A stretch of 46,458 bases of DNA, taken from sequence record OR896821.1; one strand, given 5' to 3'. Below, piece after piece: positions 3,084 through 39,272 of the stretch; the stretch's first letter is position 1, and every line of letters starts with the position of its first letter. Origin of the DNA: Escherichia phage Phagiculus. The position numbers were made by a program, and so were the translations under genes. Under the pieces are notes generated by a model. The model was not told where the DNA came from and did not search any database. It saw only the letters and a program-made list of their open reading frames with translations.

Positions 3084-3110
3084 TAAAAAAACCTCCACGA
3101 GGGAGGTTTA
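3084..3110 (-). terminator. intrinsic terminator-like hairpin between chaperone GT stop and tape measure start
   Basis: minus strand ACCTCC-CTCGT-GGAGGT followed by TTTTTTT, then GGAGG RBS. Confidence 0.45.
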
Positions 3111-3434
3111 TTTCTTAACATGCTGCATCATATCCAGAGCCTTATACTCAAGTATGCGCAGGTCGTTTAAAACCATCTCTTTATCTTTGACATTATACAC
3201 ATCAAAGAGAAATGGTAGTACTGAATAATCTAATCCTGTCGCGCCGTTCATCCCGACTCGCCATTGAGTAGCGGAAGCCTGATAGATATTCCATGCGCAC
3301 ATCATGTCATCATCGAAGAATAATTCCTCTGGCCCTTCATCTTCGTAATCTGAGCGGCGCATACCAATAGCTTCAAGTTCCGCATCTGTAGGCTCCTTCT
3401 GATACTGGAGGAATACGGCGCGTTTTAGTTTTTT
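3108..3434 (-). CDS. tail assembly chaperone T-frame extension (expressed as G-T fusion by -1 frameshift)
   Basis: -1 frame open from slippery site to stop at 3108; covers the ORF-track 84-aa ORF. Confidence 0.6.
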
Positions 3435-3742
3435 GCTCGCTGACCTGCGAGTGCCTGCATATATGCGTTAGTTAACGCCAGTACCGAAGCAGGGAAAAGA
3501 GAAACTAATTCCTCGATATTTTCATCATTAAAATCTTCCTCAAGGTTCCAGTCAGAGCAGATTTCCTTAACGAAGTCGTAATCCTTCAACCCTTCAGTCT
3601 GGAAGATTTCCTGAATCTCTTTAGCTTTACGGTGCTTTGCTGTAAAGATTACCTCAGCTTCCTCGCCGTTAATCATCTGGAATTTAACAGGCAGCTTAAA
3701 ATCAGGTAAAGCGCCAAGTGTTAATTTGAATTTTGCAGCCAT
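3425..3742 (-). CDS. tail assembly chaperone (lambda gpG-like)
   Basis: 105-aa acidic protein directly upstream of tape measure; AGGAG RBS; ends in frameshift site. Confidence 0.65.
   Translation of the reverse strand: MAAKFKLTLGALPDFKLPVKFQMINGEEAEVIFTAKHRKAKEIQEIFQTEGLKDYDFVKEICSDWNLEEDFNDENIEELVSLFPASVLALTNAYMQALAGQRAKN
3428..3434 (-). other. programmed -1 ribosomal frameshift slippery heptamer A_AAA_AAC
   Basis: minus-strand AAAAAAC immediately before the G stop codon; -1 frame continues open for about 107 codons. Confidence 0.6.
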
Positions 3743-3788
3743 CTCTCGATACTCCTATTGTTTGTTTGAGGTTTCTATTGTATTCATT

Positions 3789-4490
3789 TTATTTACTGTT
3801 AGCAAGGTATAGCGCTTTAGCAAAGCCTCTTGGGGTAAGGCTTCTAATCATCTTAGTTCTTGCGCTCTTCCCGCCAAGTTTAGCCCAGCCTGGATTATCG
3901 GATGAGTTAGCATTAACCATCTTATCCTCAGGCATAACAAAGCCGTTTCCAGTCCAGAGGCAAGTTTTCTTATTGTAAGTATCCCTTCCAGGAATTATCT
4001 CAGGGAAGAACGGGTGCTTGTCATCCTCATCAAGATAGCCACCAAAATCACAAGGATGGAAAGTGTGATTTGGCCTTCTCCACATCGATGACAATACGCT
4101 AACTGGGTTCTCTATCATATATGGAGCGTTAAAGTGATTGGCTATATACTCAGCAATTCTGCAAGTTGACACCGCCTTGCGCTGAAAATCAGGGTCTTTT
4201 TCACCCTTAGATTTAAAGTGTCTTGAACCCGATACAGCAAGGTCAGTACACGGAGGGAATGCAATTATTAAATCTGGCTCACCAAAATAGCCTTTAACAG
4301 CCAGGTCCGCGAAAGATGAATCAATCCATGCATTAATGTATGTTATGTTCTCATGCTGAATCTTTGAGTTGTATTTGGCGTAGTCACCGTGGTCAGCGTC
4401 GTCATAGTTAAAACAAATCACCTTGTGACCGTTTTCTGCCCACGGCTGAGCTGCGATACCTGAACCATCAAATAAGCTGAATACTAACAT
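3789..4490 (-). CDS. DNA (cytosine-5) methyltransferase-like protein
   Basis: motif I-like LFDGSGI, motif IV-like FPPCTD with Pro-Cys, motif VI-like IENPVS; GAGGG RBS before ATG at 4490; preceded by terminator. Confidence 0.5.
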   Translation of the reverse strand: MLVFSLFDGSGIAAQPWAENGHKVICFNYDDADHGDYAKYNSKIQHENITYINAWIDSSFADLAVKGYFGEPDLIIAFPPCTDLAVSGSRHFKSKGEKDPDFQRKAVSTCRIAEYIANHFNAPYMIENPVSVLSSMWRRPNHTFHPCDFGGYLDEDDKHPFFPEIIPGRDTYNKKTCLWTGNGFVMPEDKMVNANSSDNPGWAKLGGKSARTKMIRSLTPRGFAKALYLANSK

Positions 4491-4525
4491 TATTAAACCC
4501 TCTTGTTTTCGATGGGTCCAATATA

Positions 4526-4552
4526 ACAAAAAAGACCCCTAAGGGTCTTTGC
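4526..4552 (-). terminator. intrinsic terminator after major tail protein gene
   Basis: minus strand AGACCC-TTAG-GGGTCT followed by TTTTTT. Confidence 0.6.
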
Positions 4553-4564
4553 AAAAAGTGCTAT

Positions 4565-5215
4565 TTATGCTGCCAGGAAGCTGTAGCGTCCTCGTACCGT
4601 AATTGCTACGGATACAGTTTCGATTTCGTTAACAGAAACGTTTGGCGTTTCGTTGAATGCGATAGTGCCAGTCCACAAGCGAACTTCACCAGCCTTAGGT
4701 ACGTATGCGCGAATCGCCAGAAGTGCACCAGTCTCATCGTAGTTGCGAAGGATTGGGTAAATCGGGTTGGTGAAGTCGTGCGCAAAGGTGTAAGTGGTGT
4801 TAACAGCTGACTTATAAGTCGGAATCTGCTGCTCACGGTCATCTGCCAGACACTGATAGGTAACAAACTGCTGTTCACCGCCGTCAGTAGAAACATCCTG
4901 AATACAAGGCATTTCATACCAGCTAAGAATCTTGTAGATTACCGCGGTGCCGCCAGCAGGGAACTGCATAACGTCGCTAGTGTCGATACCTTCGACGGTA
5001 ATAGTTGTTGCAGTGGTGCTAACTACTCGCAGTTGCTTCTCGGAAAGCTTAGACCAGCTTGAGGATTCAACAACGATAAAGTCACCACTTGCAAAATCAG
5101 AAGCGTCAGCAACCGTCATTACTGGTTGGGCTGCGTTGCTTACTGCGGTTACCTGAACTGATTCTCCAGCTGAACCCTGGATAAAGATTTGAGTACCGTT
5201 ACTCAAGTGTGCCAT
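4565..5215 (-). CDS. major tail (tube) protein
   Basis: position between neck/tail-completion genes and chaperones; AAGGAG RBS before ATG at 5215; flanked downstream by strong terminator. Confidence 0.55.
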   Translation of the reverse strand: MAHLSNGTQIFIQGSAGESVQVTAVSNAAQPVMTVADASDFASGDFIVVESSSWSKLSEKQLRVVSTTATTITVEGIDTSDVMQFPAGGTAVIYKILSWYEMPCIQDVSTDGGEQQFVTYQCLADDREQQIPTYKSAVNTTYTFAHDFTNPIYPILRNYDETGALLAIRAYVPKAGEVRLWTGTIAFNETPNVSVNEIETVSVAITVRGRYSFLAA

Positions 5216-8311: not shown

Positions 8312-9853
8312 TTATGGCAGCTTGAATGTCTCAATCCTAATTGCGATGTTAAAACTAGTATCAGCTGGGCGCTGAAGGTGAAAAACATCAATCATTATAA
8401 TGTTTTTATCTCCCCAATCTCTAGCTGAGAATTGAATTCTTTTATATCCCCCACCAGTATAACCCGCAGGATCACCTACAACATACCTGCTAGTTCCTGC
8501 AATTGTGTGGTTTGACTGATATCTCTTAACTACGTCAGCGGATGGAAAGTTTACAACCTCAACATCAAAATACCTTCCTGCAATTGAGTTGCCTACAAAA
8601 GAGTACTCAATGTTATTCCCAACCCTTCTTACTGAAAAAGAGATGCCAGGGTTGTTTGGTATAGCTATAGCTGAGTAGCTTGTCGATACGGTAAGTTGAG
8701 TTGTATAAACTGGATTGTTTGTATTATTTTGACCTGCTGGACCCTGTGGGCCGGTTGCGCCAGTTTCGCCTTTTTCTCCTTTGTCGCCCTTTTCGCCCCT
8801 CTCTCCCTGTGGTCCTTGTGGCCCCACCGCTCCAGCAACGCCTCTAATGCCTTGCGGCCCTTGAATACCCTGAGGTCCAGTATCACCTTTTGGCCCTTGA
8901 GGACCGGCTGGTCCAGTAATACCCTGCAATCCTTGATCACCTTTTGGCCCCTGTTCACCTGGTAAACCTTGAATACCTTGCTGGCCCTGAACCCCTCTTG
9001 GACCCTGCTGTCCTGTTTCTCCTTTTTCACCTTGAGGGCCGATATCACCAGGGTCGCCTTTTTCACCCTTATCACCCTTCGTCCCCTGAGCGGCAAGAAC
9101 AACCCACAGAGGTGATACTCCAGGTTCCTCATCTTCTGCAATGTTGCTAACTGCGAAGTAGGTTGAGCCACCGTAAACTACGGTATCATCTTTTGCATAA
9201 CCAGTATCAGGAACCCATTGCCCACGGAATGTTAAACCAGCAGGCCCGACTTCGCCAGGATCACCTTTCTCACCAGTATCACCTTTTAATCCTTGCGGAC
9301 CTTGTGGGCCGATATCACCCCTATCTCCCTTGTCGCCTTTCAAGCCTGCTGGGCCTTGAATTCCCTGTGGACCTTGAATACCTTGAGGGCCAATTGGTCC
9401 TTGTGGACCTACCGCACCACGCTCACCTTTTTCCCCATCAGCGCCATCGTCACCCTTTGGACCCTGCGGACCCTCTGGTCCAACTTCCCCTCGTGGACCT
9501 TGAGGACCTTGCGGACCAGCCATTCCATCCCTGCCAGATGTTCCCTGAAACCCTTTAGTTAACGCAACTGCAAACTGATTTGACTCGGATGAAGGTTCGC
9601 CAAAAACCTCCCAACCTTCGTGAGTGATTTCGTTTACTCTATCAATTAGCTTTTGGCGACTGGTTGCACTCAGAACCATGAAGTCGGTAATATCTGCGTT
9701 AGTTCCCTTAGCTACAACCATGCCAATAGTGTTAGAGCCAGTGCCTGTTAATACTCTATCAAATGGCTGCCAACCTTCTGCAATTGCCTCTAGCACCTTG
9801 CGGCTAAGTGATGCCGTGTTACCAGCAAGGATTTGCCTAAATTCTAAAGCCAT
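8312..9853 (-). CDS. collagen-like repeat protein with embedded CBM5/12 (ChtBD3)-like segment
   Basis: two long Gly-X-Y runs (GPQGPQGPRGEVGPEGPQGPKGDDG... and GDKGEKGDPGDIGPQGEKG...) separated by WVPDTGYAKDDTVVYGGSTYFAV...PLW; non-collagen N- and C-terminal domains. Confidence 0.8.
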   Translation of the reverse strand: MALEFRQILAGNTASLSRKVLEAIAEGWQPFDRVLTGTGSNTIGMVVAKGTNADITDFMVLSATSRQKLIDRVNEITHEGWEVFGEPSSESNQFAVALTKGFQGTSGRDGMAGPQGPQGPRGEVGPEGPQGPKGDDGADGEKGERGAVGPQGPIGPQGIQGPQGIQGPAGLKGDKGDRGDIGPQGPQGLKGDTGEKGDPGEVGPAGLTFRGQWVPDTGYAKDDTVVYGGSTYFAVSNIAEDEEPGVSPLWVVLAAQGTKGDKGEKGDPGDIGPQGEKGETGQQGPRGVQGQQGIQGLPGEQGPKGDQGLQGITGPAGPQGPKGDTGPQGIQGPQGIRGVAGAVGPQGPQGERGEKGDKGEKGETGATGPQGPAGQNNTNNPVYTTQLTVSTSYSAIAIPNNPGISFSVRRVGNNIEYSFVGNSIAGRYFDVEVVNFPSADVVKRYQSNHTIAGTSRYVVGDPAGYTGGGYKRIQFSARDWGDKNIIMIDVFHLQRPADTSFNIAIRIETFKLP

Positions 9854-19170: not shown

Positions 19171-19178
19171 CTAACGAA

Positions 19179-19222
19179 TAGCACTTTTTGCTAAAGACGA
19201 AACCACCATGATTGGGTATAGT
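19179..19222 (+). promoter_or_regulatory. conserved promoter module
   Basis: tagcactttttgcta then aagacg then TATAGT at 19217..19222; leader CCATCGAAACGAA. Confidence 0.6.
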
Positions 19223-19675: not shown

Positions 19676-19676
19676 A

Positions 19677-19719
19677 TAGCACTTTTTGTTAAAACAGGCA
19701 TTAAGAAAACGAGTATAGT
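19677..19719 (+). promoter_or_regulatory. conserved promoter module
   Basis: tagcactttttgtta, aaacag, TATAGT at 19714..19719. Confidence 0.55.
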
Positions 19720-19747: not shown

Positions 19748-19981
19748 ATGAAAGCAATAATTATCAACAACGAAATTAAGTTTGACGAAGATGCACTAAG
19801 CCTGGCTGATATGGGTTATGAGATTGGTGAAGAGGTTGAGGTTGCACATTGCAATTGTGATTGCGATTGTGGTTATTATTTCATATATGCAAAGCAAGAC
19901 GTCATTATCGATGGGATTGTCGCTGTAATTAAAGGTGAAGAAGTTCAGGTTAACTCAGAAGAAATTGAGGTGATTGCATGA
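19748..19981 (+). CDS. small Cys-rich protein (HCNCDCDCGYYF)
   Basis: GAGGAG RBS; ORF. Confidence 0.5.
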   Translation: MKAIIINNEIKFDEDALSLADMGYEIGEEVEVAHCNCDCDCGYYFIYAKQDVIIDGIVAVIKGEEVQVNSEEIEVIA

Positions 19982-20184
19982 AACTCTTATGCAAGAACGT
20001 GATTAAGGACTTCAGTCATGTGTTCGTTAGAGGTTCCGTATATGAATCTGAGGGCATGAAAGATAACTCATGCTTAGTTACTGGCGACCATCCACATAAG
20101 CGTCACGGTACATGGCAAGCGGTTAAAACCACACTTGGCGTTACAGTTCTCGGCATAGCAACTTTTACCATCATTGAGGAATAA
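19978..20184 (+). CDS. hypothetical protein (68 aa)
   Basis: ATGA overlap with upstream gene. Confidence 0.45.
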   Translation: MKLLCKNVIKDFSHVFVRGSVYESEGMKDNSCLVTGDHPHKRHGTWQAVKTTLGVTVLGIATFTIIEE

Positions 20185-20188
20185 AAAC

Positions 20189-20542
20189 ATGGCTACTACT
20201 ATCACAAAAAATTGGGTGTCTTCTGATAACAAACTATTTAAAGCTCGAGTTAAAGATGGTGTTGAGCAAATTAAAGCTAATGGCAAATGGGTAAATCTCA
20301 CTGATCGGGGGCGCTATGTTAAGACCAAGACTCTGCTCTGCACCTTTGTTGACCACAAGTCACCGCTCAAGAAGAGCTTCAAGGAAGGTAAGCGTTACCA
20401 GGTATACATGAATGCCTCAATAGGATTTTATGCCGGCTATATTTACGATGAGGATGGAGATGGGTGGCAACTCACCAGAGATGATGCGGTTGGCTTTGGT
20501 GTTAGCTATGGTCTTTACAGATTTGAGGAGCAATACAAATGA
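20189..20542 (+). CDS. hypothetical protein (118 aa)
   Basis: GAGGA RBS before ATG at 20189. Confidence 0.5.
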   Translation: MATTITKNWVSSDNKLFKARVKDGVEQIKANGKWVNLTDRGRYVKTKTLLCTFVDHKSPLKKSFKEGKRYQVYMNASIGFYAGYIYDEDGDGWQLTRDDAVGFGVSYGLYRFEEQYK

Positions 20543-20766
20543 TTCATGAACTAAAGATATTACCAGTACATTTTGATCCGGTAGATACTGGCCTTAAGCT
20601 GGCAGAGCTAAGAAAAAATGACAGAAATTTTTCTGTTGGTGATAAGTTGATACTCAAAGAGTTCCACGATGGTGCTTATACCGGAAGGATTACAATAAAA
20701 GAGGTATTACATATAGCTGATGTTTCCGAATATCTTCCAGGGTATGTTTTACTCTCAATGTATTAA
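20539..20766 (+). CDS. ASCH/DUF3850-like small protein
   Basis: MIHELKILPVHFDPV...LRKNDRNFSVGD pattern typical of the DUF3850 family. Confidence 0.45.
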   Translation: MIHELKILPVHFDPVDTGLKLAELRKNDRNFSVGDKLILKEFHDGAYTGRITIKEVLHIADVSEYLPGYVLLSMY

Positions 20767-20810
20767 TAGCACTTTTTGCTAATGACATTACCCGCCTCGG
20801 CGGGTATATT
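20767..20810 (+). promoter_or_regulatory. conserved promoter module
   Basis: tagcactttttgcta, -35-like ATGACA, TATATT; hairpin CCGCCTCGGCGG in spacer. Confidence 0.55.
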
Positions 20811-20842: not shown

Positions 20843-22426
20843 ATGTTTGATTTTAACGATGACAAATTGACTGTTGAGCAAGTAATGGCTGTTGCCGCTC
20901 AGGATGGATTGCCTCCCTTACGCGTTGCTATTAATGCTAATGGATATCGCCAGTCTCAATCATTCTGGAAATCACCTGTAGAGATTGACTCTGCAAATGA
21001 TAAGTACCCTACCATCTCTCTTGGTAACGATTTTGATGTGGTTGGTAAGTTAGCTAATAACATTGCTCGCTCTGTTCAGTTCCCCGAGGCTTCAGCTTAC
21101 ATGCACTTCCTGGGTTGCATCTCTGCGGCAATGCTAGGCCGCTTTACGGTTGAGTATCATGGAACTCAGCAACCTACGGCTTTGTACGTGGTAACTAGCC
21201 AGCCCCCATCCACTGGTAAGTCAGCAATCAACTCATTAGCGATTGCGCCAATGGTTGCAGAGGTTGAGCGAATCAACGACCAACGTAAACGTGAACGCAA
21301 GAAGATTATGGCTAAGCTGTCTGCGTTGGCTAAAGAGATGAAACAGGAGAAGTCACCATCTGAAATGGCATCTCTCTTTGAAGAGAAAGAAGACCTGGAG
21401 GAGAAGCTTGAGAAGATGTGCGATGTTGTATTCCCTGTTTCCGACACAACACCCGAAGGTCTTGCTCGCATCAACAATCGCCAGGGTAACTTTGCGGTAA
21501 TCTCGGATGAGGCGACATCAGTAAACTCATTGCTTGGCATGACTTATGGCGATAGTAGCAAGAAGACAAACAGCGAACTAGTTCTTAAGGCGTGGGACTC
21601 TGGTAACGTATCAATCGCTCGTGCCAACGCAGAAAACAATATGAGTTTTGTTGCTTTAGGTTGCATCTCTGTAATCGCGCAGGATGAGACAATTAACGCA
21701 ATAATGGATGCTGGTGCTCGTGGTATCGGTGTATCAGAGCGTTTCTTATTAGTTCGTGAAAAATCATTCCTGGGCGAACGTGTATTTGTTAACGATAACG
21801 GTGAATCAACTTACGAGCCCATCGATAATGGACTGAAAGCTGATTACTTCCGCCTGGTTCATGAAATTATGTCAGAGGTTGATGTTAAGCTGACAATCAG
21901 TAACGGTGCAGCGCTTTACCTTAACCGCGCTCGTCAGGAAATGGAACCTCACCTCGGTGATGGAGGCAAATACTCTCACTCCATGCTACGTGGCGCTCTG
22001 GGCAAGTTTGATAAGCAGGTAATTCGTATTGCGGCAGTTCTTCATACAATTCGCAATTGGGTTAATCTTAATGGTGGTAGTCCGCAGAAAGAAAGAACAA
22101 TTGACCTTGATACTATGCAGGAAGCCATTGCGATTTTCCATGAACTTAGTAAGACTTATCTTTCATCTGCAAATGCGGCTGGTCATGCTGGTGATAATGC
22201 CGAGATGAATAAGCTGATTGATATTTTGATTAAGCAAGGCAAGGCATCCAAAGGAGTGGTGGGCATTCGTGCGCTTTACGAAGCTGCTCGCAAGGTAAAA
22301 CCATTTAACTCCCAGAATGGTACCATGTTAAAGATTAAAGAACACTTAATGCCAATGCTTGATGAAAAAAACTACACTTGCACAATAGGAGAGAAAATTT
22401 ATGTCAACCCTCGCTTGCTTAGCTGA
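20843..22426 (+). CDS. P-loop NTPase, DUF3987-like replication-associated protein
   Basis: Walker A-like QPPSTGKS and Walker B-like VISDEA. Confidence 0.55.
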   Translation: MFDFNDDKLTVEQVMAVAAQDGLPPLRVAINANGYRQSQSFWKSPVEIDSANDKYPTISLGNDFDVVGKLANNIARSVQFPEASAYMHFLGCISAAMLGRFTVEYHGTQQPTALYVVTSQPPSTGKSAINSLAIAPMVAEVERINDQRKRERKKIMAKLSALAKEMKQEKSPSEMASLFEEKEDLEEKLEKMCDVVFPVSDTTPEGLARINNRQGNFAVISDEATSVNSLLGMTYGDSSKKTNSELVLKAWDSGNVSIARANAENNMSFVALGCISVIAQDETINAIMDAGARGIGVSERFLLVREKSFLGERVFVNDNGESTYEPIDNGLKADYFRLVHEIMSEVDVKLTISNGAALYLNRARQEMEPHLGDGGKYSHSMLRGALGKFDKQVIRIAAVLHTIRNWVNLNGGSPQKERTIDLDTMQEAIAIFHELSKTYLSSANAAGHAGDNAEMNKLIDILIKQGKASKGVVGIRALYEAARKVKPFNSQNGTMLKIKEHLMPMLDEKNYTCTIGEKIYVNPRLLS

Positions 22427-25431: not shown

Positions 25432-25463
25432 TTCTCTAACTCCATCTCGTTGTCGATGAAATA

Positions 25464-25507
25464 AATATAGCGCCTTTCGGCGCTATAGTCTTTAGCAAAA
25501 AGTGCTA
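25464..25507 (-). promoter_or_regulatory. conserved promoter module with hairpin in spacer
   Basis: tagcaaaaagtgcta at 25493..25507; ATAGCGCC-TTTC-GGCGCTAT hairpin; TATATT. Confidence 0.5.
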
Positions 25508-26644
25508 CTTAGTGAACATTTTAGGACGGCAGATGAATCGACCAACCTCGCCAAACTCTTTATGATAAATAATTACCGCAGCCTGACGCTGTGAACGCCA
25601 GCCTCCATTTGCACTGTATGCGTCAGGAGAGCCAAGCTGACCGTGAACCTCGTCAATACCCAAGTTAGTCTCTGTAATCTTCTGTGAGTGCCAGTGCCCT
25701 GAGTGGGTGTAAACATAATCACTAACACCAAAATCACGTCGCCAATCAGTAGCCATAACAGTCAATCGCGTTTCGGCTTTCCGCATCTGGTGGCCGTGAG
25801 TGTATCCAATCAAAGTAGAGCCAAACTTAGTAACCATCATAGCCGCGGGGCTTACGTCAACCGTGACTCGAGGCTCATCCTCATAGAATGCAGCAAGAGC
25901 GGCGCGAAGCCAAACCATACCAGATTCGTCGTGGTTGCCAGAAATTGTTTTAATATCAATAGTTTGGTGCTTCTCAAGCATCTTACGAATAGCTCGACGA
26001 ACAGACCTAATACAAACATAAACAATCTTAGCATAACGGCTGTCGCTGTCTAAAATATGACCGCTTGCAGGTGTCTTAGCCTCAAGTGAATCATAGTGAA
26101 TCAAGTCACCACCAAGTACAAGTACGGCATTCTTTGAGTTCGGCGCTTCATTTACAGCATAATCAAAGAAGTCATTCATTACCTTTTCTGCGGTTGCCGT
26201 GTCGTAGTTTTCACCACACTCATGCTTGTGAGCCATAGCGCCAATATGAAGGTCAAATACAGGGTACATAGCCAAAGTGTTTTCATCAAAAACTTTACCC
26301 TTAACTTCAACTGGTTCTTCTTTAGGTAACTCGGAGCAGAAAGCCTCTCGAGCTTGCTCCATCAACTGCTCAAGTCGCTCATTGTCAACGCTAGTCTTGA
26401 CCCACCGAATCTTCTCATTTCCTTCTGCGTCAATCATGGTTGATGTTCCCTTCACCATGTAACCATCTGGAACAAGCTTCTTAATGCCAGGATTTCCATG
26501 CAACTCACCAGCCTTAGCCAGCTTACTACGACGCAATTCAACATTGCGAATATTCATACCGTACTTCTCTGCGATTGCCTTGTTAGTCATTCCGTTCGCC
26601 AGTTCTTCACGAAGCTGTTCGTTGCTGATTTTTGCAGTTGCCAT
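25505..26644 (-). CDS. metallophosphoesterase (Mre11/SbcD-like) with N-terminal HTH
   Basis: FDLHIG, GGDLIH, GNHDE, GHWH motifs; N-terminal GMTNKAIAEKYGMNIRNVELRRSKL. Confidence 0.7.
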   Translation of the reverse strand: MATAKISNEQLREELANGMTNKAIAEKYGMNIRNVELRRSKLAKAGELHGNPGIKKLVPDGYMVKGTSTMIDAEGNEKIRWVKTSVDNERLEQLMEQAREAFCSELPKEEPVEVKGKVFDENTLAMYPVFDLHIGAMAHKHECGENYDTATAEKVMNDFFDYAVNEAPNSKNAVLVLGGDLIHYDSLEAKTPASGHILDSDSRYAKIVYVCIRSVRRAIRKMLEKHQTIDIKTISGNHDESGMVWLRAALAAFYEDEPRVTVDVSPAAMMVTKFGSTLIGYTHGHQMRKAETRLTVMATDWRRDFGVSDYVYTHSGHWHSQKITETNLGIDEVHGQLGSPDAYSANGGWRSQRQAAVIIYHKEFGEVGRFICRPKMFTK

Positions 26645-28032: not shown

Positions 28033-28075
28033 ATAATACATCACTTCTCCGATTCGTCTTTAGCAATTAGTGCTA
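28033..28075 (-). promoter_or_regulatory. conserved promoter module
   Basis: tagcaattagtgcta at 28061..28075; aagacg; minus-strand TATTAT at 28038..28033; leader CATCGAAACGAAACG. Confidence 0.6.
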
Positions 28076-28450
28076 TTTTGATAAGTAATCCTCAATCGCC
28101 AGCTTAAACATTTCAAAACCGTAACAGATAGCTGCGTAACCTCCTGTTTCTGATACCTTTTCTAGGAAATCCTTTTGCTCCTTTGAAACCTTGCTATCTG
28201 ATTTTATTGCGCGCTTAAGTTCGATTGCCGCGAATCCATTTGGTCCAATCAGCAAGATATCTGAAACTCCCTTGATTACACCTTCCTGCTTATCCTTGAC
28301 GGCAGTTCCAATTGACTTCAGGCCTTCATTCTTGACGTGAAAGGCAAATATCTCAGGGTGGTTATGACGCACCCAAGCAATCGAATTAACCTGGTGAACA
28401 ACCTCTTTAGCTTTATCCGTGCTTGTCTTGTCGTGAAATACTTTAATCAT
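28073..28450 (-). CDS. VRR-NUC domain nuclease
   Basis: GVSDILLIGPNGFAAIELK D...E.K pattern; AAGGAG RBS before ATG at 28450. Confidence 0.5.
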   Translation of the reverse strand: MIKVFHDKTSTDKAKEVVHQVNSIAWVRHNHPEIFAFHVKNEGLKSIGTAVKDKQEGVIKGVSDILLIGPNGFAAIELKRAIKSDSKVSKEQKDFLEKVSETGGYAAICYGFEMFKLAIEDYLSK

Positions 28451-30422: not shown

Positions 30423-30459
30423 ACACGACAAGCGAAAACACTTTTAGCAAAAAATGCTA
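30418..30459 (-). promoter_or_regulatory. conserved promoter module (divergent with 30395..30422)
   Basis: tagcaaaaaatgcta at 30445..30459; minus-strand TATTAT at 30423..30418. Confidence 0.5.
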
Positions 30460-30469
30460 TCGAGGTTAA

Positions 30470-38869: not shown

Positions 38870-39272
38870 TCATGAGCCCGCACCAACACTGGATGTAACT
38901 CATGTAAACGCTGTAACAGTAGTTTTTGCGCCCCTATCTATATATCCATATGCATTTGGCAACACCAGAAACAGAACTTAGTCATTTCAAAAAAACATAT
39001 CAACACAACCATAGAAGGTAGTTACACTATATACAAACAAATATAGTAATAATAATAATTACTCTAAACCCTTATTATATAAGGATTCTTTAGTGTAACT
39101 AATGCGTATCTGCGCGTAAAAAGCGTATACAATTTCCCGCGGGTCAGGATTGCATACATCGATTTACATAGGTTACGCGTATATCAAATAGCACGATTTG
39201 CTAAAGACTGACTGAAGCACCTTTGGTATAGTTACTCCATCGAAACGAAAAACACTTAATAAGGATTCAAAA
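38870..39272. repeat. AT-rich control region B, paralogous to 18670..19260
   Basis: same ordered sequence blocks as region A, ending in conserved promoter module. Confidence 0.6.
39189..39232 (+). promoter_or_regulatory. conserved promoter module
   Basis: tagcacgatttgcta, aagact, TATAGT at 39227..39232; leader TACTCCATCGAAACGAA identical to the one at 19222..19250. Confidence 0.6.

What the first reader, a model, noticed from the sequence alone, without database searches (positions are those of the whole stretch)
3789..4552. C5-methyltransferase-like gene embedded in the tail morphogenesis operon
A 233-aa ORF with motif I-like FDGSG, Pro-Cys motif IV (FPPCTD) and ENP motif VI sits between the major tail protein and chaperone G genes. 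That is a conserved structural position where no enzyme gene is expected, and it is preceded by a strong intrinsic terminator. An orphan methyltransferase co-expressed with late genes would be a plausible anti-restriction (self-methylation) function. The PCT rather than PCQ catalytic motif is atypical.
Basis: partly seen in the sequence, partly recalled or inferred. Interest (0 to 1): 0.7.

Follow-up and report, generated by a model that had tools for sequence, protein, structure and literature searches.

The report
Phage Dcm-like methyltransferase in tail operon
The ORF is an intact member of a very common, already characterised family of small phage "Dcm-like" DNA cytosine-C5 methyltransferases; the only unusual thing is that in this phage (Escherichia phage Phagiculus) the gene, with its own promoter, sits between the major tail and tail-chaperone genes instead of next to a helicase.

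Summary
A 233-aa ORF on the minus strand (3789..4490) lies between the major tail protein gene and the tail chaperone gene. It carries FDGSG, FPPCTD and IENP motifs and follows a hairpin plus T-tract.

The methyltransferase reading is supported, but the enzyme is not new. The protein matches PHROG 757 (E=4e-88), and 1,538 phage records encode a homolog. It is 62% identical over its full length to the KarlJaspers (Bas06) Dcm. The Dcm of K42, a phage 95.4% identical to Bas06 genome-wide, deposits 5mC and triggers retron Ec86. The reported catalytic residues are conserved here as C81, E127, K174 and K175. The predicted fold matches DNMT3 catalytic domains. PCT is the family norm.

Only the location is unusual. 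The closest homologs sit upstream of a 527-aa helicase. That slot lacks dcm in this window. Relatives Sd1 and Rogue1 have nothing between the two tail genes. No record among 50,697 phage genomes shows the tail-protein-to-dcm junction.

The gene also has its own promoter-like element of the class that precedes this phage's non-structural genes, and the "terminator" hairpin lies in that element's spacer. This is an ordinary accessory gene in a recurrent accessory slot, and interest is low.

The parts
3789..4490 (-). dcm: 233-aa Dcm-like orphan DNA cytosine-C5 methyltransferase
   Evidence: ORF. PHROG 757 at E=4e-88. 62% identity over the full length to KarlJaspers bas06_0055. AlphaFold2 pLDDT 89.4 with DNMT3A/B as top PDB fold hits. 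The identical protein is named 'DNA methyltransferase [Escherichia phage Phagiculus]' by NCBI.
4498..4504 (-). Ribosome-binding site AAGAGGG, 7 nt upstream of the ATG
   Evidence: Read directly.
4551..4564 (-). Conserved upstream promoter/operator-like motif ATAGCACTTTTTGC, starting one base after the major tail gene stop codon
   Evidence: 8 copies in the window at up to 2 mismatches, against 0.79 expected, with 0 of 100 shuffles reaching 8. The aligned contexts share a downstream -10 and a leader. The same motif directly precedes dcm in T1-like loci L053, L060 and L067, with a one-base-shorter variant visible in L062.
4531..4550 (-). Hairpin AAAGACCC-TTAG-GGGTCTTT followed by a T-tract. It likely terminates or attenuates major-tail-gene transcripts and lies in the spacer of the dcm promoter-like element.
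   Evidence: Terminator scan and fold at about -13 kcal/mol. Sd1 and AHS24 have an analogous hairpin after the major tail gene.
4520..4525 (-). -10-like hexamer TATATT, 18 nt after the -35-like AAGACC at 4544-4549
   Evidence: Alignment of the 8 motif copies. Consensus match only; not tested for function.
4505..4515 (-). Conserved leader CCATCGAAAAC, shared by transcripts of this promoter class
   Evidence: CCATCGAAACGA-like leaders follow the -10 at the other copies in this window and in Sd1, KarlJaspers, Rtp and JulesPiccard.
3777..3805 (-). Sigma-70-like promoter TTGCTA-17-TACAAT overlapping the 3' end of dcm, followed by the native chaperone-gene leader CTCAAACAAACA
   Evidence: Promoter scan, 9 of 12 matches. 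The leader is also present in AHS24 and JulesPiccard upstream of the chaperone gene. Relatives have an annotated promoter at the equivalent place.
4565..5215 (-). Major tail protein gene (upstream neighbour)
   Evidence: phrog_584 at E=1.9e-88; 90% identity to Rogue1.
3425..3742 (-). Tail assembly / tape-measure chaperone gene (downstream neighbour)
   Evidence: phrog_569 at E=1e-41. PF08748 on the same gene in ENA contigs. 94% identity to Rogue1.
19978..20188 (+). The usual dcm slot (upstream of the gp69-like gene and the 527-aa helicase at 20843..22426). Here it lacks dcm and holds only a 68-aa ORF.
   Evidence: tblastn of Sd1 proteins and Dcm proteins against the window; sequence. Order dcm, gp69-like gene, helicase in all 15 closest loci L003-L017, and in 44 of 80 loci overall.

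Best explanation
The ORF encodes a functional, orphan, AdoMet-dependent DNA cytosine-C5 methyltransferase of the compact 'Dcm-like' family that is widespread in Drexlerviridae and many other enterobacterial phages.

Mechanism, inferred from conserved residues and the characterised relative: Cys81 in the FPPC loop after strand 4 attacks C6 of a flipped-out cytosine. Glu127 (IENP) protonates N3. Lys174 and Lys175 contact the substrate. The FDGSG loop binds AdoMet. The likely target is CCWGG, the target reported for the K42 enzyme.

In Phagiculus the gene is a self-contained unit of promoter, leader, ribosome-binding site and coding sequence. It lies in the gap between the major tail and chaperone genes, which is a recurrent slot for accessory genes in Drexlerviridae. 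The usual slot upstream of the 527-aa helicase lacks dcm. Its promoter-like element belongs to the class that precedes the phage's non-structural genes. So it is probably transcribed independently of the late tail operon, and the embedded hairpin probably damps read-through from the highly expressed major tail gene.

The expected consequences are methylation of phage and host DNA during infection, possible protection from 5mC-sensitive restriction, and predicted triggering of retron Ec86/Eco1.

Shown here: gene structure, family membership, conserved residues, fold, unusual position, promoter-like motif. Inferred: catalytic activity, target sequence, timing of expression, biological role.
For: Family:
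- PHROG 757 'DNA methyltransferase' at E=4e-88 over residues 1-232.
- 1,538 phage records with a homolog.
- 4,066 protein clusters at E<=1e-3 in the 90% clustered database and 1,255 clusters in the 50% clustered library.

Characterised relative:
- 62% identity at E=1e-111 over the full length to KarlJaspers/Bas06 bas06_0055, annotated 'Dcm-like C5 cytosine methyltransferase'.
- The Dcm of phage K42 (95.4% genome identity to Bas06; 711-bp gene) triggers retron Ec86.
- It puts 5mC on msDNA as measured by LC-MS.
- A C82A/E128A/K175A/K176A mutant was used as the negative control in those toxicity and LC-MS assays (the passages I read describe the design; figures are not held).
- The CCTGG site in msDNA was mutated to test the target (published as Wang et al., Cell Rep 2024, cited).
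- Those four residues correspond to C81, E127, K174 and K175 here. C81, E127 and K174 are invariant in 32 homologs. K175 is mostly conserved, with Q, R, T or E in a few.

Fold:
- AlphaFold2 gave pLDDT 89.4 and pTM 0.87.
- All top Foldseek PDB hits are DNMT3A/3B C5-methyltransferase domains, with E down to 1.3e-7.
- The viral library (BFVD) hits are phage cytosine methylases, with TM up to 0.87.
- PF00145 matches motifs I-IV at 16.5 bits, and 8 of 32 relatives match at E<=0.01.

Position:
- There is a single dcm copy in the window, and the usual slot lacks it.
- Sd1, Rogue1, AHS24 and KarlJaspers have the major tail gene directly followed by the chaperone gene.
- 0 of 80 IMG/VR loci have tail genes within 5 kb of dcm, and 44 of 80 have the helicase.
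- 0 of 1,740 matching phage records contain the junction from the major tail gene into dcm.

Own promoter:
- Motif statistics and alignment.
- The genes it precedes are two helicases and small ORFs.
- The same motif directly precedes dcm in T1-like loci.
- It also precedes the small accessory ORF in the same gap in Rtp and JulesPiccard.
Against: - No activity, methylome or transcript data exist for this phage.
- The protein itself falls below Pfam's PF00145 gathering score (16.5 against 22 bits). It has no NCBIfam hit and no significant PDB sequence hit (best E=0.063 with a profile).
- Foldseek TM-scores to solved C5-methyltransferases are only 0.4-0.5.
- Canonical motifs VIII (QxRxR) and X (GNxxP) are not recognisable.
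- The CCWGG specificity of the K42 enzyme rests on one study, and 62% identity does not guarantee the same target.
- The promoter assignment is a consensus match. Its -35-like hexamer is weak, the tool's sigma-70 scan did not call it, and the distal half of the upstream palindrome is degenerate in the dcm copy (TGCAA instead of TGCTA).
- Read-through from the major tail gene could still make it a late gene as well.
- The junction test that came back negative needs a recognisable C-terminal half of the major tail protein within about 800 bases of dcm, so very divergent arrangements could be missed.
- The complementary query (C-terminal half of Dcm plus the chaperone) found 3 records covering at least 80% of it. 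Only one was identified (Erwinia phage Snitter), and it is an alignment artefact.
Confidence: 0.85

Rival explanations
1. The gene is a true late gene. It has no functional promoter of its own and is transcribed only by read-through from the major tail gene, so the methyltransferase is made together with tail proteins.
For: It lies in the same orientation inside the tail operon, 74 nt after the major tail gene stop. The hairpin has only 8 pairs, so read-through is plausible. The -35-like hexamer of the proposed promoter is weak, and the sigma-70 scan did not report it.
Against: The 14-nt motif, -10 and leader match 7 other sites in this genome that all precede non-structural genes. They also match promoters directly upstream of dcm in T1-like phages. 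Methylating replicating DNA needs the enzyme before packaging. In KarlJaspers, dcm lies among small genes next to a putative helicase, in a region that carries the same motif.
Confidence: 0.2
2. The protein is a catalytically different or inactive C5-methyltransferase-like protein, for example an RNA methyltransferase, a DNA-binding decoy or a hypermodification enzyme, rather than a DNA 5mC methyltransferase.
For: It is very short (233 aa) with no recognisable classical target-recognition domain or motif X. It is below the Pfam threshold. TM-scores to solved DNA methyltransferases are low.
Against: A 62%-identical relative produces 5mC in DNA, and the study built a mutant of the equivalent Cys, Glu, Lys and Lys as its inactive control. 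Three of those four residues, together with the AdoMet loop, are invariant across the family, and the second Lys is mostly conserved. All significant fold hits near the top are DNA C5-methyltransferases.
Confidence: 0.05
3. The gene is a recently arrived passenger of a mobile element, such as a homing-endonuclease cassette or transposon, rather than a product of promoter-bounded module shuffling.
For: Drexlerviridae structural modules often carry HNH homing endonuclease insertions. Examples are Sd1 gp29 and gp43 and Rogue1 gp23.
Against: No endonuclease or transposase ORF is adjacent. There are no flanking direct or inverted repeats beyond chance-level 9-16 nt matches. GC content is the same as the genome's. 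Homology to relatives stops at the major tail gene stop codon and resumes at the chaperone gene's promoter and leader.
Confidence: 0.05

Closest known systems
Dcm-like C5 cytosine methyltransferase of Drexlerviridae phages KarlJaspers (Bas06, bas06_0055) and K42, the trigger of retron Ec86/Eco1
   Same: 62% identity over the full length and about the same size (233 against 236 aa). The same Cys, Glu, Lys and Lys residues are present, and so is the 'DNPGWAK...GGKS.RTK.IRSLTPRGFA' C-terminal region. Both are orphan enzymes in Drexlerviridae.
   Different: The genomic position differs. KarlJaspers dcm lies among small genes next to a putative helicase, while the Phagiculus gene lies between the major tail and chaperone genes. 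Activity, target and retron triggering have not been tested for the Phagiculus protein.
PHROG 757 'DNA methyltransferase' family (T1-like, Kagunavirus/Jersey-like, rV5-like, Webervirus and other phages)
   Same: Full-length profile match at E=4e-88. All family-invariant residues are present.
   Different: Nothing at the protein level. It is 71% identical to its nearest relatives, which come from Klebsiella, Citrobacter and Salmonella phage contigs, but only 48% identical to the Dcm of its nearest sequenced genome relative, Sd1.
Canonical C5 DNA methyltransferases (Pfam PF00145; the DNMT3A/3B catalytic domain is the nearest solved fold)
   Same: Rossmann-like fold with motif I (FxGxG) after strand 1, a Pro-Cys loop after strand 4 and a Glu-Asn-x motif after strand 5.
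   Different: It is about 50-100 residues shorter. It has PCT rather than PCQ, and ENP rather than ENV (consensus forms from my own knowledge of the family). No recognisable QxRxR or GNxxP motifs and no large target-recognition domain are present. It is below Pfam's gathering score.
Accessory genes ('morons') in late operons of siphoviruses, specifically the small ORFs rtp34 of phage Rtp and bas03_0018 of JulesPiccard in the same gap
   Same: The layout is the same: major tail gene, hairpin terminator, ATAGCAC-type promoter-like motif, CATCGAAACGA leader, accessory ORF, chaperone gene.
   Different: The cargo here is a 233-aa enzyme rather than an 82-128-aa protein of unknown function. The hairpin lies inside the promoter spacer rather than upstream of the motif. 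No terminator of its own follows the gene.

Membership tests
C5 cytosine DNA methyltransferase superfamily (PF00145-like) | AdoMet-binding motif I (FxGxG) after the first beta-strand | tested here: met
   FDGSG at residues 7-11. G9, S10 and G11 are invariant, and F7 and D8 are at least 90% conserved in 32 homologs. Strand 2-6 precedes it in the model.
C5 cytosine DNA methyltransferase superfamily (PF00145-like) | Catalytic Pro-Cys (motif IV) after strand 4 | tested here: met
   FPPCTD at 78-83. P80 and C81 are invariant. Strand 74-77 precedes it. It corresponds to C82 of the K42 Dcm, named the putative catalytic residue and included in the quadruple mutant.
C5 cytosine DNA methyltransferase superfamily (PF00145-like) | Motif VI Glu (ENV-type) after strand 5 | tested here: met
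   IENP at 126-129. E127, N128 and P129 are invariant. Strand 124-127 in the model. It corresponds to E128 of the K42 Dcm.
C5 cytosine DNA methyltransferase superfamily (PF00145-like) | Motif VIII (QxRxR), motif IX, motif X (GNxxP) and a target-recognition domain | tested here: inconclusive
   No QxRxR or GNxxP is seen in the sequence. Conserved KKTC(L)W (174-179) and IRSLTPRGFA (215-224) may be the equivalents. No residue-level structural superposition was available.
C5 cytosine DNA methyltransferase superfamily (PF00145-like) | Score above Pfam's curated gathering threshold | tested here: not met
   16.5 bits against a cut-off of 22, E=0.0059, matching only profile positions 3-82. 8 of 32 relatives match at E<=0.01, best 1.3e-6.
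C5 cytosine DNA methyltransferase superfamily (PF00145-like) | C5-methyltransferase fold | tested here: met
C5 cytosine DNA methyltransferase superfamily (PF00145-like) | Produces 5-methylcytosine in DNA | not testable with these tools
   Reported for the K42 Dcm, whose Bas06 counterpart is 62% identical to this protein. The method was LC-MS of msDNA, with the quadruple mutant and empty vector as controls.
Drexlerviridae Dcm-like methyltransferase / PHROG 757 | Full-length profile and pairwise similarity to family members | tested here: met
   phrog_757 at E=4e-88 over residues 1-232. 62% identity to bas06_0055. 55-71% identity to 80 IMG/VR loci.
Drexlerviridae Dcm-like methyltransferase / PHROG 757 | Usual synteny: dcm, gp69-like gene, 527-aa helicase | tested here: not met
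   The window has the gp69-like gene (20189..20542) and the helicase (20843..22426) but no dcm upstream of them. All 15 closest loci (L003-L017) have this synteny.
Restriction-modification system | Cognate restriction endonuclease gene adjacent | tested here: not met
   The neighbours are the major tail and chaperone genes, so this is an orphan methyltransferase.
Moron-type accessory cassette in a late operon | Inserted between two genes that are adjacent in related phages | tested here: met
   The major tail and chaperone genes are adjacent in Sd1, Rogue1, AHS24 and KarlJaspers.
Moron-type accessory cassette in a late operon | Own promoter | tested here: inconclusive
   There is a sequence match to a repeated promoter-like element. 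No transcript data are available.
Moron-type accessory cassette in a late operon | Own downstream terminator | tested here: not met
   No terminator-like hairpin lies between the dcm stop (3789) and the chaperone start (3742).

The most novel reading that the evidence does not exclude
Moving dcm out of the early region into the tail operon, behind a hairpin that is embedded in its promoter, changes when or how strongly the methyltransferase is made. This might let the phage still methylate progeny DNA while reducing early triggering of methylation-sensing abortive-infection systems such as retron Ec86/Eco1. Gene relocation would then be an immune-evasion route.
Probability: 0.07. Interest if true: 0.5.

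Novelty: new member of a known kind. Interest (0 to 1): 0.15.

Why it matters
It matters little beyond annotation. The gene belongs to a family found in more than 1,500 sequenced phages, has an experimentally studied relative, and is already labelled 'DNA methyltransferase' in the public record of this phage.

Three points are mildly useful:
- The analysis gives a testable prediction that Phagiculus is sensed by retron Ec86/Eco1 and carries 5mC, probably at CCWGG.
- It documents that the gap between the major tail and chaperone genes in Drexlerviridae is a recurrent slot for promoter-bearing accessory genes.
- It shows that dcm is gained, lost and moved within Rogunavirinae: absent in Rogue1, in the usual slot in Sd1, and in the tail operon in Phagiculus. 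That patchiness fits the BASEL finding that methyltransferase content does not simply predict restriction resistance.

Tried and rejected
Sequence and structure searches:
- NCBIfam gave no hit.
- PDB sequence searches were weak. The single sequence gave only chance-level hits. The 32-sequence profile gave DNMT3B at E=0.063, motifs I-IV only.
- The TTG start at 4529 was rejected, as explained in the observation check.

Signs of a mobile element:
- A search for flanking repeats found only 9-16 nt chance-level matches.
- The composition profile shows no anomaly: GC is 0.41-0.45 across the gene against 0.438 for the genome.

Searches for the same arrangement elsewhere:
- A concatenated query of major tail protein, Dcm and chaperone against phage genomes found 4 of 1,804 records with at least 80% coverage. 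They did not appear among the 60 rows shown.
- A junction query (C-terminal half of the major tail protein plus N-terminal half of Dcm) found 0 of 1,740.
- A junction query (C-terminal half of Dcm plus the chaperone) found 3 of 1,662. The one I could see, Erwinia phage Snitter, is a tblastn over-extension across adjacent major tail and chaperone genes, with no dcm there. The other records were not identified.
- The exact protein occurs only on the 46,458-bp contig (this window's length) and on five ENA contigs with consecutive analysis accessions (ERZ14237447-ERZ14237451), all with the same arrangement. I read these as the same phage, although the tool does not say so.

Target inference:
- CCWGG counts are uninformative: 93 sites, observed/expected 0.84.
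Full report
**What is there**

The window is the genome of Escherichia phage Phagiculus. A protein 100% identical to the ORF product is named 'DNA methyltransferase [Escherichia phage Phagiculus]' by NCBI, on a contig of 46,458 bp, which is the window's length. The Citizen Phage Library paper lists the phage as Drexlerviridae, Rogunavirinae (PMC10893117). The nearest genome in the phage collection is Shigella phage Sd1, at about 77% DNA identity over aligned parts.

The ORF is on the minus strand. Its ATG is at 4490 and its stop at 3789-3791, giving 233 aa, with an AAGAGGG ribosome-binding site at 4498-4504. Upstream lies the major tail protein gene, 4565..5215(-), which matches phrog_584 at E=1.9e-88. 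Downstream lie the tail chaperone gene (3425..3742), a DUF1799-type gene (3108..3362) and the tape-measure gene. The motifs FDGSG, FPPCTD and IENP are present. So is the hairpin plus T-tract at 4550..4531.

**What the protein is**

- **Family.** It matches PHROG 757 'DNA methyltransferase' over its whole length (E=4e-88). tblastn finds a homolog in 1,538 of 50,697 phage records, spanning Escherichia, Klebsiella, Salmonella, Shigella, Vibrio and other phages, and siphoviruses as well as large myoviruses. Protein searches find 4,066 clusters in the 90% clustered database and 1,255 clusters in the 50% clustered library.
- **Pfam.** PF00145 (C5 DNA methylase) matches only motifs I-IV and falls below threshold, at 16.5 against 22 bits. 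8 of 32 relatives match at E<=0.01.
- **Fold.** An AlphaFold2 model from a 32-sequence alignment is confident, with pLDDT 89.4 and pTM 0.87. Its top 46 Foldseek hits in the PDB are the catalytic domains of DNMT3A/3B (E down to 1.3e-7, TM 0.4-0.5). In the viral structure library the hits are phage cytosine methylases.
- **Motif placement.** The model places FDGSG after strand 1, the Pro-Cys loop after strand 4 and Glu-Asn-Pro after strand 5, as in C5 methyltransferases.

**Link to an experimentally studied enzyme**

The protein is 62% identical (E=1e-111, full length) to bas06_0055 of phage KarlJaspers (Bas06), annotated 'Dcm-like C5 cytosine methyltransferase'. A study of phage K42, whose genome is 95.4% identical to Bas06, reported four things about its 711-bp dcm gene (bioRxiv 10.1101/2023.08.16.553469; published as Wang et al., Cell Rep 2024):
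- Escape mutants from retron Ec86 map to dcm.
- Dcm expression is toxic only when the retron is present.
- LC-MS was used to detect C5 methylation of the retron's msDNA.
- A C82A/E128A/K175A/K176A mutant served as the control, and the CCTGG site in msDNA was mutated to test the target.

Those four residues are C81, E127, K174 and K175 in the Phagiculus protein. C81, E127 and K174 are invariant in the 32-sequence alignment, and K175 is mostly conserved. Phagiculus and KarlJaspers also share the 'DNPGWAK' variant of the C-terminal region, which makes a shared target plausible. That last step is inference.

The threonine in PCT is conserved in at least 90% of the family. It is therefore normal for this family, not atypical.

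**What is unusual: the position**

- The window has one dcm copy and no Dam homolog.
- In the 15 closest homolog loci (68-71% identity) the order is dcm, a gp69-like gene, then a 527-aa helicase. This order holds in 44 of 80 IMG/VR loci, and none of the 80 has a major tail or chaperone gene within 5 kb.
- Phagiculus has the gp69-like gene (20189..20542) and the helicase (20843..22426). Upstream of them is only a 68-aa ORF, not dcm.
- Within Rogunavirinae, Sd1 has a divergent dcm (48% identity) in the usual slot, and Rogue1 has none at all.
- In Sd1, Rogue1, AHS24 and KarlJaspers the major tail gene is followed directly by the chaperone gene.
- A junction query (C-terminal half of the major tail protein plus N-terminal half of Dcm) found no record covering both among 1,740 matching phage genomes.
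- The complementary query (C-terminal half of Dcm plus the chaperone) gave 3 records. The one I could inspect, Erwinia phage Snitter, is an alignment artefact. The other two, and 4 records from an earlier three-part query, were not identified.
- The exact protein is otherwise found only on five ENA contigs with consecutive analysis accessions, all with the same arrangement. These are probably the same phage.

**The gene brings its own control signals**

Immediately after the major tail gene stop codon comes ATAGCACTTTTTGC (4564..4551). This 14-mer occurs 8 times in the window at up to 2 mismatches, against 0.79 expected. When aligned, the copies share this layout: ATAGCACTTTTTGC(T)AAAGAC, then about 17-18 nt, then TATAGT or TATATT, then 4 nt, then CCATCGAAACGA, then a ribosome-binding site and a start codon.

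Six of the other seven copies precede two helicase genes and four small ORFs. For the seventh copy (39188, + strand) my script found no downstream ORF of 35 aa or more. None of the eight precedes a structural gene other than through dcm. The motif occurs about 20 times in KarlJaspers and 7 times in Sd1. It directly precedes dcm in T1-like loci.

In Braunvirinae (Rtp, JulesPiccard) the same gap between the major tail and chaperone genes contains a terminator hairpin, this motif and a small ORF of 82-128 aa. The gap is therefore a recurrent accessory-gene slot.

The helicase promoter-like element (20766) and the one at 25495 have hairpins in the same place. A hairpin after the major tail gene is also present in Sd1 and AHS24, so it is a native feature of the site.

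Downstream, a TTGCTA-17-TACAAT promoter-like site overlaps the end of dcm. It is followed by the conserved chaperone-gene leader CTCAAACAAACA, so chaperone and tape-measure expression need not depend on transcription through dcm.

**Most likely mechanism**

The enzyme is an orphan AdoMet-dependent DNA C5-cytosine methyltransferase, probably specific for CCWGG. It is probably expressed from its own promoter of the non-structural-gene class. It methylates phage and host DNA during infection. I infer the catalytic steps from conserved residues and the K42 data; they are not shown for this protein.

Its benefit is presumably protection against 5mC-sensitive restriction. However, the BASEL study found no simple relationship between methyltransferase genes and restriction resistance in Drexlerviridae (PMC8594841). 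A predictable cost is sensing by retron Ec86/Eco1.

How the gene reached this slot is unknown. There are no flanking repeats, no mobile-element genes and no compositional anomaly. Recombination at the repeated promoter-like motif is a reasonable guess, but it is untested.

**Rivals**

- A protein that is not a DNA methyltransferase is unlikely, given the characterised relative and the conserved catalytic residues.
- A homing-endonuclease or transposon passenger has no support.

**Verdict**

This is a correctly spotted methyltransferase gene, but it is a routine member of a large, known and partly characterised phage family that is already annotated in the public record. The tail-operon position is rare for this gene but fits a known pattern of accessory genes in that gap. 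Novelty: new member of a known kind. Interest: low (0.15).

Noticed in passing
window 4551-4564(-), 19178-19191(+), 19676-19689(+), 20766-20779(+), 25495-25508(-), 28063-28076(-), 30447-30460(-), 39188-39201(+): A repeated promoter/operator-like element: ATAGCACTTTTTGC(T)AAAGAC, about 17-18 nt, TATAGT or TATATT, 4 nt, CCATCGAAACGA. It contains the palindrome TAGCA-N5-TGCTA, which suggests a binding site for a dimeric regulator. There are 8 copies against 0.79 expected. Where a downstream gene was identified it is non-structural. It is also abundant in KarlJaspers (about 20 copies), Sd1 (7) and Rtp.
   Followed up: partly
window 4531-4550(-), about 20789-20804(+), about 25463-25484(-): At three of these elements a G+C-rich hairpin followed by a T-rich stretch sits inside the promoter spacer. 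The same short stretch could therefore both terminate upstream transcripts and start new ones (fold energies -13 to -19 kcal/mol, z from -2.8 to -4.5).
   Followed up: partly
whole window: GATC is strongly depleted: 38 sites against about 206 expected, ratio 0.18. Sd1 gives 0.26. In KarlJaspers, which encodes its own Dam-like methyltransferase, the ratio is 0.99. The window has no Dam homolog. This looks like site avoidance and self-methylation acting as alternative strategies.
   Followed up: partly
window 19978-20184(+): A 68-aa ORF (MKLLCKNVIKDFSH...) occupies the place where related phages carry dcm, between the gp65-like and gp69-like genes upstream of the 527-aa helicase.
   Followed up: no
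L094 (Rtp) 968-1354; L093 (JulesPiccard) 968-1216: Braunvirinae phages carry a small gene of unknown function (rtp34, bas03_0018), with the same promoter-like motif, in the gap between the major tail and chaperone genes. The gap is therefore a recurrent accessory-gene slot.
   Followed up: partly
L085 (KarlJaspers) about 8608-8621, minus strand: KarlJaspers has a copy of the ATAGCACTTTTTGT motif in the same gap, but on the strand opposite to the tail genes, pointing back toward the major tail gene.
   Followed up: no
window 8312-9853(-): A 513-aa protein with long collagen-like Gly-X-Y repeats (GPQGPQGPRGEVGPEGPQGPKGD...) lies next to the major capsid gene. Relatives annotate the equivalent gene as a tail fiber or collagen-like protein.
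   Followed up: no
window 3089-3109, both strands: A perfect 8-bp hairpin (AAACCTCC...GGAGGTTT) with T-runs on both strands lies at the junction between the DUF1799-type gene and the tape-measure gene. The scan flagged it as terminator-like in both orientations.
   Followed up: no
L096 (Rogue1), L086 (Sd1): dcm is patchy within Rogunavirinae. Rogue1 has no homolog at all. Sd1 has a divergent one (48% identity to the Phagiculus protein) in the usual slot.
   Followed up: yes
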